DNA of 64,000 bases from Escherichia coli (GCF_051903065.1 NZ_CP178438.1); one strand, 5' to 3'. Positions 41,401 to 47,400 are shown, counted from the stretch's first letter. A program made the numbers.

Positions 41401-44400
41401 GTATGTCCGGCTGATGAGCGTCACCCTGAACTGAGTCTGGAAGGGCATTCAGAAGAGCAGAATTATCGCCACCACCGGACCATTCTTAACCAATTTTCTG
41501 TGAGGATTTTATCGTGTCAGACACTCTCCCCGGGACAACGCATCCCGACGATAACAACGACCGCCCCTGGTGGGGGCTACCCTGCACCGTGACGCCCTGT
41601 TTTGGGGCACGTCTGGTGCAGGAGGGTAACCGGTTGCATTACCTTGCAGACCGCGCCGGTATCAGAGGCCGGTTCAGCGACGCGGATGCGTACCATCTGG
41701 ACCAGGCCTTTCCGCTGCTGATGAAACAACTGGAACTCATGCTCACCAGCGGTGAACTGAATCCCCGCCATCAGCATACCGTCACGCTGTATGCAAAAGG
41801 GCTGACCTGCAAAGCCGATACCCTCAGCAGTTGTGGTTACGTTTATATGGCTGTTTATCCGACACTGGCACCCGCAACCACCTCATAACCCCGAATATCT
41901 CACCTTTAGCACTACCAGTTACAGAGAACTTAAGATGAAAACATTACCTGACACACACGTACGGGAGGCATCGCGCTGCCCGTCTCCCGTCACCATCTGG
42001 CAGACACTGCTCACCCGACTGTTGGACCAGCATTACGGCCTCACACTGAATGACACACCGTTCGCTGATGAACGTGTGATTGAGCAGCATATTGAGGCAG
42101 GCATTTCACTGTGCGATGCGGTGAACTTTCTCGTTGAAAAATACGCACTGGTACGTACCGACCAGCCAGGATTCAGCGCCTGTACCCGTTCTCAGTTAAT
42201 AAACAGTATTGATATCCTCCGGGCCCGCCGGGCAACCGGCCTGATGGCCCGCGACAATTACAGAACGGTAAATAACATTACCCTGGGTAAACATCCGGGG
42301 GCGAAACAATGAAACTGGCCCTGACGCTGGAAGCCGACAGCATTAACGTGCAGGCACTGAACATGGGGCGCATTGTCGTTGACGTCGATGGTGTTACTCT
42401 CGCTGAACTGATTAACGTGGTCTGCGATAACGGTTACTCCCTTCGTGTTGTTGATGAATCTGACCGGACATCAGCAGAGCGCACGCCATCATCTGCGGCG
42501 GCCCTTACCGGCATACGCTGCAGTACCGCGCATATCACGGCAAAGGACAACGCCTGGCTGTACTCGCTGTCACATCAGACGAATGGCACCGGCGAATCAG
42601 AATGGATTCATTTCACAGGTAGCGGATATCTGTTACGTACCGATGCGTGGTCATACCCGGTTCTGCGGCTTAAGCGCCTGGGCCTGTCAAAAACGTTCCG
42701 TCGTCTGGTTGTCACACTTACCCGACGTTATGGCGTCAGTCTCATTCATCTGGATGCCAGCGCTGAATGTCTGCCGGACCTGCCCACTTTCGACTGGTAA
42801 CCAGGAACAACATGAAATCATTAACCACGGAAACCGCACTGGATATTCTGATTGCGTGGCTACAGGACAATATCGACTGCGAATCGGGAATTATCTTTGA
42901 CAACGATGAGGATAGAACGGATTCGGCAGCACTGTTGCCCTGTATCGAACAGGCCAGGGAGGATATCCGTATCCTGCGCCAGTTGCAGCTTCTGCAACAG
43001 AACCGGTGAGTCTTACTCACCAGACTTCATTCCACTGACGCCAGCCTGAACAGGGCTGGCGTTTTCATTTATCTGCAAAAAGGAATATCGATTATGTCTG
43101 AAATCACAGCCCCCCGTCCGGAAGTGGTCAACGGGCATACGGACGTTATCGGCTCAACCAGCATCCGCCACATTCTGGCTGTACGAAAGAGTGCGCTGCT
43201 GCAAATCGACACACTTATCCGGCAACTGGCAGAAATCTCGGTGCTGACGGAAAGCATCGGAGGTAAAACTGCACTGGACTGGGCCATGAAACAGGATTTT
43301 CGCTGCGGTTGCTGGCTGATGGAAAAACCGGAAACCGCAATGAAAGCCATCACCCGCAACCTTGACCGCGAAATCTGGCGTGATCTGATGCAACGTTCAG
43401 GGATGCTGTCATTAATGGATGCACAAGCCCGTGATACATGGTACCGGTCACTGGAGTACGATAATTTTCCGGAAATCAGCGAAGCAAATATCCTGAGCAC
43501 GTTTGAACAACTGCACCAGAACAAAGATGAAGTGTTTGAGCGAGGGGTGCTCAACGTTTTCAGAGGACTGAGCTGGAATTACAAAACCAATTCACCCTGC
43601 AAATTTGGCAGTAAAATTATCGTCAACAATCTGGTGAGGTGGGACCGGTGGGGGTTTCATCTTATCACCGGACAACAGGCCGATCGACTTGCCGATCTGG
43701 AAAGAATGCTGCACCTGTTCAGCGGCAAACCGATCCCCGACAACCGGGAAAACATCACCATTCATCTGGATGATCACATCCAGTCTGTTCAGGGTAAAGA
43801 GGACTATGAAGATGAGATGTTCAGCATCAGATACTTTAAGAAGGGCTCCGCGCACATCACGTTCAGGAAACCAGAGCTGGTTGACAGGCTTAATGATATT
43901 ATTGCCAGACACTACCCGGAAGCCCTGGCAAGCACAGTGAACAAAAGCCGCAAGGCATAAAAGAGGTATTTTACAATTCGCGAATATTAACTATTATTAA
44001 TTGATAGTAATCAATCGGCGAGAAAATAACCATGCCTACCAGTGTATCCCTCAGTCCTTACTTTGAAACGTTTATCCGCGAACAAATAGAAAGTGGTCGG
44101 TACAACAATACAAGTGAAGTCATTCGTGCCGGACTTCGTGCTCTGGAAGAACGGGAACAGCAGATAAAGCTTGAATCACTCCAGAGCGCCGTGGCCGCAG
44201 GCATCAACAGCGGTGAAAGTAAAAGTGCTGAAGAGGTATTCGGGCGACTGACGCACAAATACAAAAAGATGGCAGAAGGTGAACAGCCAATATGAAACTG
44301 ACTGTTTCACCATTAGCAGAACACGATCTTGAAGCTATAGGTGACTGGATCGCTCAGGATAATCCTGTCCGTGCAATCAGTTTTACCGAAGAGCTTTACC

Positions 44401-47400
44401 AACAATGTCTGTTGATAGCCGAATCGCCAGTACTCTACAGAGAAAGACCCGAGTTAGGGGCTGGGATCAGAGGTTGTTCGTATGGTCGTTACCTTCTGCT
44501 GTTCAGGGTACTGGATACTGAAGTTCGTATCGAACGTATCGTTCATGGTTCCCGGGATATCAACAGGGTACTTGCAGAGCCAGACGACAAACCATCAGAT
44601 CATTTCTGGCAGCCATAAACAAAATCTGTGCGTTAACGCTCCCTAACACAGGTAGCCAGGTATTTTATAAATCTCTGTATTTTGTTGTCACTTCGATTCC
44701 GCGATTCAGCATATCGAACCAGACAAAATGATTACAACAAACCACAAGAAAGAGGGATTATAGCGTCAAAAGAATTCGAATTGCACATGGGGGCCTCATT
44801 GGTGGCCTCAAAAAGAACAAGGATAAAACAGTCGATACAAAACAATTGGTTATATAACCAGTTTCATTCCGAGTCCGGGCACCACTATTCATAAGGCCTC
44901 GCTGCAAAGCGGGGCTTTTTCACTTTCTGGCTACGGTAGATTTCTGGCCATTGCAAAGCATTATCTATTGGCTGGTTTTTTTCGCCTTTTCACGGATGTT
45001 CGTGACGTTTATACACCTCAGTACCCTCTGATATACCTTCTCTCTGCTGCCTGAAAACAAGAAATTCAATAGGTTAATAATTTATGCGTTTGTCCATCTA
45101 AAGGCGACAGTTGCCACAGTATCTAAACTGACTGATGCAAAGTCCCTCTACCCGGTAAGGTATCAGGACCATCAACGCAGACTTTTCGCAACAACCACTA
45201 CCAAAATACCGCGTAAATAACCTTCCAGAACAAGCATGACTTTTTTAACTCTCTTTTCCCCACCTGAGAAGCACCTCTTCCGCAATCCCCACAGGCAAAA
45301 ACTCCTGCTCCAGACGACCACGCGGTAAACGGGTTAAGTAGCGATAAAAATCGGCCTCCTCGTTAAGCAAGCCATCAGGTACAGCTTCCTTCGCTATGAC
45401 CGGTTCTGGAACGGCGCTATGACTGGCATACTGCTCAAACAACTCACGGTTCATGAGCAGGGCATCAAGCGTCGGACGACAACGCCTGGCTCTCGCCAGC
45501 ATCAGTAGTCCCCAGCTATCCATGTCCCCCCAATAGGCAACGCGTTTTTCATCCAGAACAGAACTGGATAGCCATTGCACGTCCAGGCCACAGCCTAAAA
45601 TCGCGATAGTGTCAGATAATGCTGGAAGATGATGCAAACACTGCTCATTTTCAACCACCAGCACTTGCGACGCGGGTAATGTTGTTTCCGCCAGTTCCGC
45701 CGTTGTTACCCGGCATTTTTTAAAAGGAAGCAAGCCGGGTGATAATGGTACAACTAAAACCCAGTGACTGGACTCATCAAAAGCATCAAGAAAAGTTGTT
45801 AATCCCTGCTCGCTGGCTTCTCCTGAAAATCGCACGTCCAACTGACCATAGTGTTGTTCCACAAACGTAATTTCGGCAACCGTCCACTGTGCCCAGTGAT
45901 TACGGTAATGCTGCGTTTTATCCACCATGTCAGACCTCCCGGGTATCAGTCTCGTTGTTTTTCCTGCGCCAGCGTAAAGATTTGAGCCCGGAGTTGTTGT
46001 TCAGCCTGCAGGACCGCCTGCTGACGCTGCAGTGAGACTTCAGGGAGCAACTTCAACTGCCGAAGCTGCTCTTCTACCGGTACGGTCTGCCGGAAGCTTG
46101 TCAGCATGCCAAAGACCTGCGATTTAAGCTCACTGACGGTAATGTATTTTCCTCTCTGACCATCAAGCGCATTCAGTTTATGGGCAAGTGCCTGAAGCTG
46201 TGTCATTCCTTCATGCCAGCCATTCATTGTATCGACAGGAAGTACTGAGACATTAACCTGTTGCTGCCACTGCTGTGTCAGAGGCTTAGCCTGCTCCGGC
46301 CACAACGACTGAGCTTGTTCTGTAAGTTTTCTGGCATAAGTGATATTCCAGTCAGGAGGTGATTTATCCAGTCGGGCCAGCTGCTGCTGTGTCTGTGCAA
46401 TAAGATCCTGCGGTAACGGAGTCTGCTGACGCAACATCCGCAGCTGTTCAGACGTGAGAGGTGCAGGGAACGGAGCCAGTGAAGCAGCTAGCTGATTCTG
46501 TAGAGGGTCTGGCCGGTGAATAAAATGCCAGCTCCACACTGAAACTATGCTTATCACCAACATGGTACACATCCCGGCGGCAAAGGATTTCCACTTTTTA
46601 ACCGGAACAGGCATTGTCGACAGCACTTCCACATTCGGCTGCGACTGCGGTTCCCGTTGAGCAACGTAAACCCACTGTACTGCACTCCCTGGCGTATCTT
46701 CATTCGGTCCACCAGAAAAGTCTCTCGTGGATGCTATCGCATCATTTGTCACGGTGGCAGGCAACCCGATACCAGGCTGAATGCTCGAGCCGGTACTGGT
46801 TATGCCATTGCTGTTTTCCAGCCGGGCAGCACTATTGTGCATCAGGATACGCAATGTATCGAGTTGGCTGAGATGTTTTAGCTCCAGGCGCTGTAGTACC
46901 TCTCCAAGGCCTGTAAGCAGTTGCTCCACCCGGTACAGCTGGTTGATGTCGCTGTAATTTAACGGGAGCGATCGCATTCGTTGCTGCAGGCGCTGACTCA
47001 GGCTGCTGAGGATTTCCATGCGGGCATGAACTGGATGCGGCCACAGAGTCCCCCACTGATGGCTTATCAGTGCCTCGAGTATCGCCAGCCCTTCATTGAG
47101 CCCGAATAAGCCAGCCAGCTGCGTACGCGCAAGCGTATACCAGGCTGCCGTTTGCAACTCCACGCCGTTCTGCTCAAACAGTGAGAGACAAAGTTTTTCG
47201 ACATACTGCCAGCTCACATCCGGGCGAGCCGGATGTGTTAGCTTACTCAGTTCATCACGCAGGGCGGCATAATCCGGTAGCATGCGCGGGTCGCCGCCGG
47301 TTTTTAATTTACGCTTGGGGATATCATTCATGGTCAGTTGTCCATTAGACGTACCAGGGGCTATTAAAGGGTATTGTTTATGCGGCTTCACTTTCTGCAT

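What the first reader, a model, noticed from the sequence alone, without database searches (positions are those of the whole stretch)
41514..44618. Two toxin-antitoxin modules at the island distal end (CbeA/CbtA-like and ParDE-like)
A CbeA/CbtA-type pair within the standard CP4 gene order and, after YeeW-like and one further ORF, a separate ParD/ParE-type pair with overlapping start/stop. The ParDE pair is the last module before the tRNA-Phe repeat and may stabilise the island.
Basis: partly seen in the sequence, partly recalled or inferred. Interest (0 to 1): 0.25.

Follow-up and report, generated by a model that had tools for sequence, protein, structure and literature searches.

The report
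Two ordinary toxin-antitoxin pairs at island end
The region holds two intact, well-known toxin-antitoxin gene pairs (CbeA/CbtA and ParD/ParE) at the far end of an E. coli tRNA-Phe genomic island; identical copies are routinely annotated in hundreds of genomes, so it is ordinary.

Summary
Window 41514-41888/41935-42312 encode CbeA (PF06154, 179.5 bits) and CbtA (PF06755, 212 bits), 96% and 89% identical to K-12 CbeA and CbtA. Window 44032-44295/44292-44618 encode ParD (TIGR02606, 96.8 bits) and ParE (PF05016, 65.3 bits; its only solved relatives are ParE toxins), with an ATGA stop/start overlap.

One correction: three ORFs separate the pairs, not two (DUF5983/YeeW-like, a 65-aa ORF, DUF4942).

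ParE is the last gene before a tRNA-Phe 3' repeat at 44862-44884 (exact 19-mer 44866-44884). Island homology ends at 44895.

The ParDE cassette occurs in 472 of 5426 complete E. coli genomes. It is always chromosomal, is >=99% identical in 460, had the same upstream gene order in every intact locus inspected, and sits at both pheV and pheU. RefSeq already names all these genes, so this is already known.

One extra finding: the slot between DUF4942 and the last ~190 bp of the island holds either ParDE or an AbiEi/AbiEii pair (653 genomes). Together these account for almost all islands with this end.

Island stabilisation is plausible, with a ParE precedent in Shewanella CP4So, but it is untested. 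Here the island carries floR-tet(A)-strAB-sul2.

The parts
41514..41888 (+). cbeA (yeeU-type) type IV antitoxin, 124 aa, GTG start
   Evidence: PF06154 at 179.5 bits. 112/117 identical to K-12 CbeA. Solved relatives 2inw and 2h28 at E 1e-78 and 2e-77. RefSeq WP_032153712.1 'cbeA' at the same position in a match that is 100.0% identical over 24.9 kb.
41935..42312 (+). cbtA-family toxin, 125 aa
   Evidence: PF06755 at 212 bits over the full model. 110/124 identical to K-12 CbtA. F65 is kept; Cys occupies position 15. RefSeq WP_000854735.1.
42309..42800 (+). DUF5983 (full-length YeeW-like) gene; its start overlaps the cbtA stop (ATGA)
   Evidence: PF25638 at 108 bits plus PF19419 at 77.5 bits. 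62% identical to the 64-aa K-12 YeeW over its N-terminus. Overlap read.
42812..43009 (+). 65-aa ORF, named DUF957 by RefSeq
   Evidence: Annotated as DUF957.
43037..43063 (+). terminator-like hairpin, probably ending the cbeA-cbtA-DUF5983-DUF957 transcription unit
   Evidence: 11-bp stem with 7 GC pairs and a T-rich tail. A consensus match only.
43094..43960 (+). DUF4942 gene, 288 aa; its last 46 bp belong to the variable slot
   Evidence: PF13708 at 233.5 bits. Homology with the AbiE-type island stops at window 43914.
43970..44015 (+). parDE promoter-like site (TTTACA-16-TATTAT, 43970-43997) with palindromes ATTCG/CGAAT (43976-43985) and ATTGAT-AGTA-ATCAAT (44000-44015); candidate ParD operator
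   Evidence: Sequence patterns only; the function is inferred.
44032..44295 (+). parD, ribbon-helix-helix antitoxin, 87 aa
   Evidence: TIGR02606 at 96.8 bits. PF03693 at 62.7 bits. Solved ParD relatives 7b22, 3kxe_C and 8c24_C at E 5e-11 to 2e-9.
44292..44618 (+). parE toxin, 108 aa; 4-bp ATGA overlap with parD
   Evidence: PF05016 at 65.3 bits. All 8 solved relatives with E<=1 pair with or are named as ParE or plasmid-stabilisation toxins; the best is 6x0a at 2.8e-13. The RelE/StbE model scores below its cut-off, 24.3 vs 27.9 bits.
44694..44884 (+). conserved terminal segment of the island, ending in the tRNA-Phe 3' direct repeat (44862-44884; exact 19-mer 44866-44884); presumed attR arm
   Evidence: About 90% identical to the end of AbiE-type islands. 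Repeat found. The parE-stop-to-repeat distance is 246-247 bp in all 18 sequences (the window and 17 other loci) where both exact strings were found.
44893..44918 (+). terminator-like hairpin just after the repeat, in the position expected for the native tRNA-Phe terminator
   Evidence: Homology with islands that have other flanks ends at 44895.

Best explanation
The region is the conserved distal (attR) end of an E. coli tRNA-Phe (pheV/pheU) genomic island. It carries two independent, intact toxin-antitoxin modules of known kinds.

(1) CbeA/CbtA is a type IV pair embedded in the CP4-type backbone: antirestriction, radC, DUF987, cbeA, cbtA, DUF5983, DUF957. By homology, CbtA blocks cell division through FtsZ (F65 is kept) and probably cell elongation through MreB. 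CbeA counteracts it by bundling FtsZ and MreB filaments rather than by binding the toxin.

(2) ParD/ParE is a type II pair with its own promoter-like site and palindromes. By homology, the ParD ribbon-helix-helix dimer represses the operon and its C-terminal tail neutralises ParE. Free ParE poisons DNA gyrase.

ParDE occupies an exchangeable slot about 250 bp from attR and is carried on any excised island. Its most likely role is therefore addiction: cells that lose the island lose the labile ParD and are arrested by ParE. This would help retain an island that here carries floR, tet(A), strAB and sul2.

Shown here: gene integrity, family membership, position, conservation and the slot structure. 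Inferred: the molecular targets, toxicity, autoregulation and the stabilising effect.
For: Family matches are far above cut-offs.

CbeA is 96% and CbtA 89% identical to the experimentally studied K-12 proteins. Their mechanism is described in PMC5624674 (FtsZ H6/H7 loop, MreB flat face, F65S and R15C variants; CbeA bundling) and PMC5371832.

The only solved relatives of the toxin are ParE proteins, and those of the antitoxin are ParD proteins. The genes overlap by ATGA. A promoter-like site and palindromes lie in the 71-bp gap before parD.

The ParDE cassette is in 472 of 5426 complete E. coli genomes, all chromosomal, and >=99% identical in 460. In every intact locus inspected it follows DUF4942 and lies 246-247 bp before the tRNA-Phe repeat, at both the pheV and pheU sites. 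The one exception is STE15 (L008), where parD is kept but parE is replaced by a cbtA fragment from another island copy.

The alternative occupant of the same slot is another toxin-antitoxin pair, AbiEi/AbiEii, in 653 genomes.

Plasmid-borne ParE relatives at 70-82% identity are each annotated beside a ParD gene on Salmonella and Pantoea plasmids.

A ParE-family pair is reported as essential for maintaining circular prophage CP4So after excision in Shewanella (PMC8706911 abstract). HipAB stabilises a genomic island in Shewanella (PMC8978831).
Against: No experiment on this ParDE was found; a search for its four RefSeq accessions returned no papers.

Chromosomal TA pairs are often selfish passengers with no measurable benefit.

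Only about 3% of the CP4-type island ends in E. coli carry ParDE (505 of 14672 places), so it is dispensable for this island backbone.

CbtA has Cys at position 15. In K-12 CbtA the R15C change abolishes MreB binding, although YpjF and YkfI also have C15 and still block elongation (PMC5624674). The MreB arm is therefore uncertain.

Gyrase poisoning has been shown only for some ParE proteins (my knowledge of the family) and cannot be read from the sequence.
Confidence: 0.85

Rival explanations
1. The slot next to attR is a defence slot. ParDE would act mainly as an abortive-infection or anti-phage module, like the AbiE pair that replaces it in other islands, rather than as an island-retention device.
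For: The alternative occupant of the same slot is AbiEi/AbiEii, a recognised anti-phage system (PADLOC 171.8 and 322.9 bits). The island also carries an HsdR-like restriction subunit and a dGTPase-like HD protein.
Against: No PADLOC model matches ParD or ParE at E<=0.01. AbiE is itself a toxin-antitoxin pair, so it fits the addiction reading equally well. The AbiEii gene is frameshifted in the one AbiE-type locus examined. No phage data exist for this ParDE.
Confidence: 0.15
2. Both pairs are selfish passengers with no function for island or host. They persist only because deleting them is counter-selected, and ParDE reached this slot by chance recombination.
For: GC content falls from about 55% (cbeA-cbtA) to about 45% (DUF4942 3' end, parDE, terminal segment), which suggests a mosaic origin. 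ParDE is present in only 8.7% of complete genomes. In STE15 the parE gene has been lost by recombination with another island copy.
Against: Nearly every island with this terminal segment carries one of two intact-looking TA cassettes at exactly the same boundaries. That argues for retention rather than random insertion. ParDE is >=99% identical in 460 genomes across different cargo and two attachment sites.
Confidence: 0.3
3. The 108-aa toxin is a RelE-type ribosome-dependent mRNA interferase rather than a gyrase-poisoning ParE.
For: PF05016 belongs to the ParE/RelE superfamily. RefSeq names the protein only 'RelE/ParE family toxin'. TIGR02385 RelE_StbE gives a weak match of 24.3 bits.
Against: That match is below the curated cut-off of 27.9 bits. 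All eight solved relatives with E<=1 pair with or are named as ParE or plasmid-stabilisation toxins, and none is named RelE. The partner is a ParD-type ribbon-helix-helix antitoxin.
Confidence: 0.07

Closest known systems
CbtA/CbeA (YeeV/YeeU) of E. coli K-12 cryptic prophage CP4-44, with paralogues YkfI/YafW (CP4-6) and YpjF/YfjZ (CP4-57)
   Same: Same two Pfam families and the same gene order (radC, DUF987, antitoxin, toxin, yeeW-like). CbeA is 96% and CbtA 89% identical to the K-12 proteins. F65, the FtsZ-binding determinant, is conserved. The toxin stop overlaps the yeeW-like start, as in K-12.
   Different: Residues 6-19 of the toxin differ from K-12 CbtA, and position 15 is Cys as in YpjF and YkfI (PMC5624674). 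The downstream DUF5983 gene is full length at 163 aa, against the 64-aa K-12 YeeW. The host island sits at tRNA-Phe rather than at the CP4-44 site.
ParD/ParE type II systems: Mesorhizobium opportunistum ParDE3 (5ceg, 6x0a), Caulobacter ParDE1 (3kxe), Vibrio cholerae ParDE2 (7b22, 7r5a). Organism names are from my knowledge of these PDB entries.
   Same: Antitoxin-first operon with overlapping genes. ParD has an N-terminal ribbon-helix-helix domain. The ParE core aligns over about 90 residues, including the C-terminal 'RIVHGSRD' motif whose His is also present in the three best solved relatives.
   Different: ParE has only about 38% identical positions with the best solved relative (my count from the alignment). 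It has a tail of about 15 residues (AEPDDKPSDHFWQP) beyond the aligned core. The pair is chromosomal, on an integrative island rather than a plasmid.
ParE_SO/CopA_SO of Shewanella oneidensis prophage CP4So
   Same: A ParE-family toxin pair carried by a CP4-type integrative element. It is reported as essential for keeping the excised circular element (PMC8706911 abstract). This is the functional model adopted here.
   Different: The antitoxin there is CopA-type, not ParD-type. The host and element differ. Sequence similarity to the window ParE was not measured.
AbiEi/AbiEii pair in the same slot of other E. coli tRNA-Phe islands (e.g. MNCRE44, NZ_CP010876.1)
   Same: Same flanks: DUF4942 on the left and the ~190-bp terminal segment plus tRNA-Phe repeat on the right. 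It is also a two-gene toxin-antitoxin module with the antitoxin first.
   Different: The protein families are unrelated (a nucleotidyltransferase toxin). The cassette is longer (1430 vs 779 bp). PADLOC recognises it as anti-phage defence. The toxin is frameshifted in the locus examined.

Membership tests
CbtA/CbeA type IV toxin-antitoxin | Toxin matches the CbtA_toxin family (PF06755) above the curated cut-off | tested here: met
   212 bits vs 25, covering model positions 1-112 of 112.
CbtA/CbeA type IV toxin-antitoxin | Antitoxin matches the CbeA_antitoxin family (PF06154) and lies immediately upstream on the same strand | tested here: met
   179.5 bits vs 27. cbeA ends at 41888 and cbtA starts at 41935.
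CbtA/CbeA type IV toxin-antitoxin | FtsZ-binding determinant F65 conserved | tested here: met
   The ungapped alignment with K-12 CbtA shows 'VNFLVEKY' identical, with F at position 65. The role of F65 is from PMC5624674.
CbtA/CbeA type IV toxin-antitoxin | MreB-binding determinant R15 of K-12 CbtA | tested here: not met
   Position 15 is Cys. YpjF and YkfI also carry C15 and still block elongation (PMC5624674). R15 is therefore not family-defining, but the MreB arm is uncertain here.
CbtA/CbeA type IV toxin-antitoxin | Toxicity (lemon-shaped cells) and neutralisation by the antitoxin without direct toxin binding | not testable with these tools
   Needs expression and microscopy.
ParD/ParE type II toxin-antitoxin | Antitoxin with an N-terminal ribbon-helix-helix ParD domain | tested here: met
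   TIGR02606 at 96.8 bits vs 46.2. PF03693 at 62.7 bits vs 21. Solved ParD relatives at E 5e-11 to 2e-9.
ParD/ParE type II toxin-antitoxin | Toxin of the ParE branch of the ParE/RelE superfamily, not RelE | tested here: met
   PF05016 at 65.3 bits vs 23. The solved relatives pair with or are named as ParE or plasmid-stabilisation toxins, and none is named RelE. The RelE_StbE model is below its cut-off.
ParD/ParE type II toxin-antitoxin | Antitoxin-first bicistronic operon with coupled genes | tested here: met
   ATGA overlap at 44292-44295. A promoter-like site lies 35 bp upstream of parD.
ParD/ParE type II toxin-antitoxin | ParE inhibits DNA gyrase; ParD binds and neutralises ParE and represses its own promoter | not testable with these tools
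   Needs toxicity, supercoiling or cleavage, and DNA-binding assays.
tRNA-Phe (pheV/pheU) integrative genomic island, distal end | Direct repeat of the tRNA-Phe 3' end at the island boundary, with the chromosomal flank beyond it | tested here: met
   21 of 23 match at 44862-44884, with 0 matches in shuffles. Homology to islands with other flanks ends at 44895. The flanks seen elsewhere are yghD, kps or a T6SS remnant (pheV) and cadC (pheU).
tRNA-Phe (pheV/pheU) integrative genomic island, distal end | Intact tRNA-Phe gene and integrase at the proximal end | tested here: inconclusive
   No tRNA gene lies in the window. The proximal end lies beyond the window start and was not fetched.

The most novel reading that the evidence does not exclude
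The end of this family of E. coli tRNA-Phe islands contains a dedicated exchange slot. It runs from 46 bp before the DUF4942 stop to about 190 bp before attR. In almost every case it holds one of two unrelated toxin-antitoxin modules: ParDE (about 470 genomes) or AbiEi/AbiEii (about 650 genomes). This implies selection for 'some TA module' next to the attachment site. The module could act as excision-loss insurance for the island, here a multidrug-resistance island, or as a portable anti-phage gene. I found no paper describing this two-allele slot, but the literature search was limited.
Probability: 0.4. Interest if true: 0.3.

Novelty: already known. Interest (0 to 1): 0.12.

Why it matters
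The finding matters little on its own. Both modules belong to well-studied families, and RefSeq annotates identical proteins in hundreds of E. coli genomes.

The practical point is that two addiction-type modules sit on a chromosomal island that also carries floR, tet(A), aph(6)-Id, aph(3'')-Ib and sul2. If ParDE does penalise island loss, it would help fix a multidrug-resistance island in clinical and poultry lineages.

The ParDE/AbiE alternation at one slot is a tidy natural comparison for testing whether attR-proximal TA modules serve island retention or phage defence.

Tried and rejected
- PADLOC scan of all ten proteins in the backbone: no match. There is no support for filing ParDE, CbtA/CbeA or DUF4942 as a listed defence system.
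- Rfam, at gathering thresholds on the whole window and at E<=1 on 41100-45300: nothing in the region. No antisense or type I/III RNA antitoxin was seen.
- ARAGORN: no tRNA in the window. The 'tRNA-Phe repeat' is only the 3' fragment.
- Pfam scan of eight alternative ORFs overlapping or flanking the genes, five on the minus strand and three in other plus-strand frames: no match. They were treated as spurious.
- The 65-aa ORF gave no Pfam hit in either the 80-aa or the 65-aa form, although RefSeq calls it DUF957.
- CbtA has no solved relative at E<=0.01.
- Literature searches for the RefSeq accessions, and for ParE together with pheV, gave no study of this ParDE.
- RelE identity for the toxin was considered and rejected.
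- They were repeated on its two ORF pieces.
- Not run, because the answer would not change the verdict: structure prediction and the very large protein-database searches.
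Full report
**Observation.**
- cbeA: 41514-41888 (124 aa, GTG start).
- cbtA: 41935-42312 (125 aa).
- parD: 44032-44295 (87 aa).
- parE: 44292-44618 (108 aa).

The parD stop and parE start share ATGA. cbtA is coupled to the next gene in the same way.

- a DUF5983 (YeeW-like) gene at 42309-42800;
- a 65-aa ORF at 42812-43009, followed by a terminator-like hairpin at 43037-43063;
- a DUF4942 gene at 43094-43960.

No Pfam match was found for eight alternative ORFs overlapping or flanking these genes, five on the minus strand and three in other plus-strand frames. No Rfam family matches the region, even at E<=1.

Pfam scores are all far above the curated cut-offs.

| Protein | Family | Bits | Cut-off |
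|---|---|---|---|
| CbeA | PF06154 CbeA_antitoxin | 179.5 | 27 |
| CbtA | PF06755 CbtA_toxin | 212 | 25 |
| ParD | PF03693 ParD_antitoxin | 62.7 | 21 |
| ParE | PF05016 ParE_toxin | 65.3 | 23 |

NCBIfam adds TIGR02606 (ParD family) at 96.8 bits against a cut-off of 46.2. The RelE/StbE model stays below its cut-off, at 24.3 against 27.9.

Against solved structures:
- CbeA matches Shigella 2inw and K-12 YeeU 2h28 at E about 1e-78.
- ParD matches ParD chains 7b22, 3kxe_C and 8c24_C at E 5e-11 to 2e-9.
- ParE matches only toxins that pair with ParD or are named ParE or plasmid-stabilisation proteins. The best is 6x0a at 2.8e-13. No chain named RelE appears at E<=1.
- CbtA has no solved relative.

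Direct comparison with K-12 CP4-44 gives 112/117 identities for CbeA and 110/124 for CbtA. F65 is kept; it is the residue whose change to Ser abolishes FtsZ binding. Position 15 is Cys. In K-12 CbtA, R15C abolishes MreB binding, but YpjF and YkfI naturally have C15 and still block elongation (PMC5624674). FtsZ inhibition is therefore expected, and MreB inhibition is likely but less certain.

**Island end.** A 23-mer of the tRNA-Phe 3' end, typed from my own knowledge of the E. coli sequence, matches once at 44862-44884 with two mismatches. None of 100 shuffles gave a match. The exact 19-mer ATTCCGAGTCCGGGCACCA is at 44866-44884.

ARAGORN finds no intact tRNA in the window, so the proximal end of the island lies beyond the window start.

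Homology with E. coli islands that have a different chromosomal flank stops at window 44895. A terminator-like hairpin follows at 44893-44918, where the native tRNA terminator would be expected.

ParE is thus the last gene of the island, 247 bp from the repeat. The same spacing of 246-247 bp was found in all 18 sequences (the window and 17 other loci) where both exact strings occur.

**How common it is.**
- The 680-bp ParDE cassette is present in 472 of 5426 complete E. coli genomes. It is never on a plasmid and is >=99% identical in 460.
- The exact ParE protein is listed in 24475 blocks of the public assembly index.
- In every intact locus inspected the order is antirestriction, RadC, DUF987, CbeA, CbtA, DUF5983, the 65-aa ORF, DUF4942, ParD, ParE.
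- This order is followed by the pheV flank (yghD/T2SS, kps, or the T6SS remnant seen in this window), by the pheU flank (cadC), or by a second integrase.
- One locus, STE15 (L008), is rearranged: parD is kept but parE is replaced by a cbtA fragment from another island copy.
- RefSeq already names all of these genes, for example WP_032153712.1 cbeA, WP_000854735.1 CbtA family, WP_025492088.1 ParD and WP_000779483.1 RelE/ParE.
- Relatives of ParE at 70-82% identity, each annotated beside a ParD gene, sit on Salmonella and Pantoea plasmids.

The finding is therefore real but already known in kind and in detail.

**What else turned up.** ParDE is not part of the general CP4-type backbone. Only 505 of about 14700 matching places in E. 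coli carry it.

The last ~200 bp of the island (44694-44895) occurs in 1113 genomes. In those lacking ParDE, the same flanks enclose a different cassette.
- On the left, the shared sequence runs to 46 bp before the DUF4942 stop.
- On the right, it resumes at the terminal segment.
- The cassette between them encodes AbiEi (PADLOC 171.8 bits) and AbiEii (PADLOC 322.9 bits; Pfam PF08843 96.2 bits). AbiEii is frameshifted in the locus examined.
- This AbiE cassette is in 653 genomes.

The two cassettes together account for nearly all islands with this end: 468 plus 653 genomes against 1113. GC content drops from about 55% over cbeA-cbtA to about 45% over the slot and the terminal segment, which fits a mosaic origin.

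**Mechanism, stated with its basis.**

Shown here:
- Both pairs are intact and belong to their families.
- ParDE has its own promoter-like site (TTTACA-16-TATTAT, 43970-43997). It also has short palindromes at 43976-43985 and 44000-44015, which could be ParD operators.
- The pair would travel with an excised island.

From established knowledge of the families:
- CbtA inhibits FtsZ and MreB polymerisation. CbeA protects by bundling the filaments (PMC5624674, PMC5371832).
- ParD dimers repress the operon and neutralise ParE. ParE poisons gyrase in the cases that have been tested.

Inferred:
- Loss of the island after excision would free ParE and arrest the cell, which would stabilise the island.
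- The closest precedent is ParE_SO/CopA_SO, reported as essential for maintaining excised prophage CP4So in Shewanella (PMC8706911). HipAB does the same for a Shewanella island (PMC8978831).

The main rival is a phage-defence role, suggested by the AbiE alternative. PADLOC has no match for ParDE, and no data exist either way.

**Context.** A match that is 100.0% identical over 24.9 kb of the window, in strain 14EC017, is annotated with ISCR2, floR, tet(A)/tetR, aph(6)-Id, aph(3'')-Ib and sul2. These correspond to window positions of about 13.4-22.1 kb. The two TA modules therefore sit on a chromosomal multidrug-resistance island. This is the only reason the stabilisation question has practical weight.

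**Verdict.** The family assignments are supported. The stabilisation idea is plausible but untested. Novelty: already known. Interest is low. The ParDE/AbiE alternation at a fixed slot is a modest extra that may merit a systematic survey.

Noticed in passing
window 43915-44693; L011 2071-3500: The stretch between the DUF4942 3' end and the last ~190 bp of the island is an exchangeable slot. It holds ParDE in about 470 complete E. coli genomes and an AbiEi/AbiEii pair in about 650. Together these cover nearly all 1113 genomes that carry this terminal segment.
   Followed up: partly
window ~13400-22100: A multidrug-resistance block lies inside the same island: ISCR2 fragment, floR, tet(A)/tetR, aph(6)-Id, aph(3'')-Ib and sul2. 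It was identified from the RefSeq annotation of a match 100.0% identical over 24.9 kb (strain 14EC017).
   Followed up: partly
window 6944-8865 (- strand) and 10324-11577 (+): An alpha-glutamyl/putrescinyl-thymine pyrophosphorylase / amino-acid:DNA transferase gene (PF18746 302 bits, PF18724 199 bits) overlaps a thymidylate-synthase-like gene by its start/stop. A dGTPase-like HD protein lies nearby. These thymidine-hypermodification-type genes are better known from phages, in my recollection, yet here they sit in a chromosomal island.
   Followed up: no
window 291-3707 (-) and 5859-6941 (+): A 1138-aa HsdR-like type I restriction subunit with an N-terminal DUF4145 domain, and an HTH plus Peptidase_M78 (ImmA/IrrE-type) protein. 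The proximal part of the window looks like a defence-gene cluster.
   Followed up: no
window 45245-47995 (- strand): Just outside the island lie a JetD_C-only ORF (227 aa), a VasL/ImpA_N protein (484 aa) and a T5orf172/GIY-YIG-like ORF. In strain 23CRST027 these are followed by tssE, tssJ and a tssG fragment, so this is a decayed type VI secretion cluster between the pheV attR and glcA. It stands where most strains have the yghD/gsp type II secretion genes.
   Followed up: partly
window 41935-42312, codon 15: The CbtA toxin is CbtA-like over residues 20-120 but differs in residues 6-19 and has Cys15. In K-12 CbtA the R15C change abolishes MreB binding. This may be a natural variant with altered MreB activity.
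   Followed up: partly
window 52219-52440 (+): A full-length match to the C0719 sRNA family (Rfam RF00117, 296.8 bits).
   Followed up: no
L008 (NZ_CP095823.1) 3001-3652: In strain STE15 the island end is rearranged. parD is retained, but parE is replaced by a cbtA fragment from a second island copy next to tRNA-Ile, and many genes are frameshifted. This is an example of recombination between paralogous island ends, or of assembly errors.
   Followed up: no
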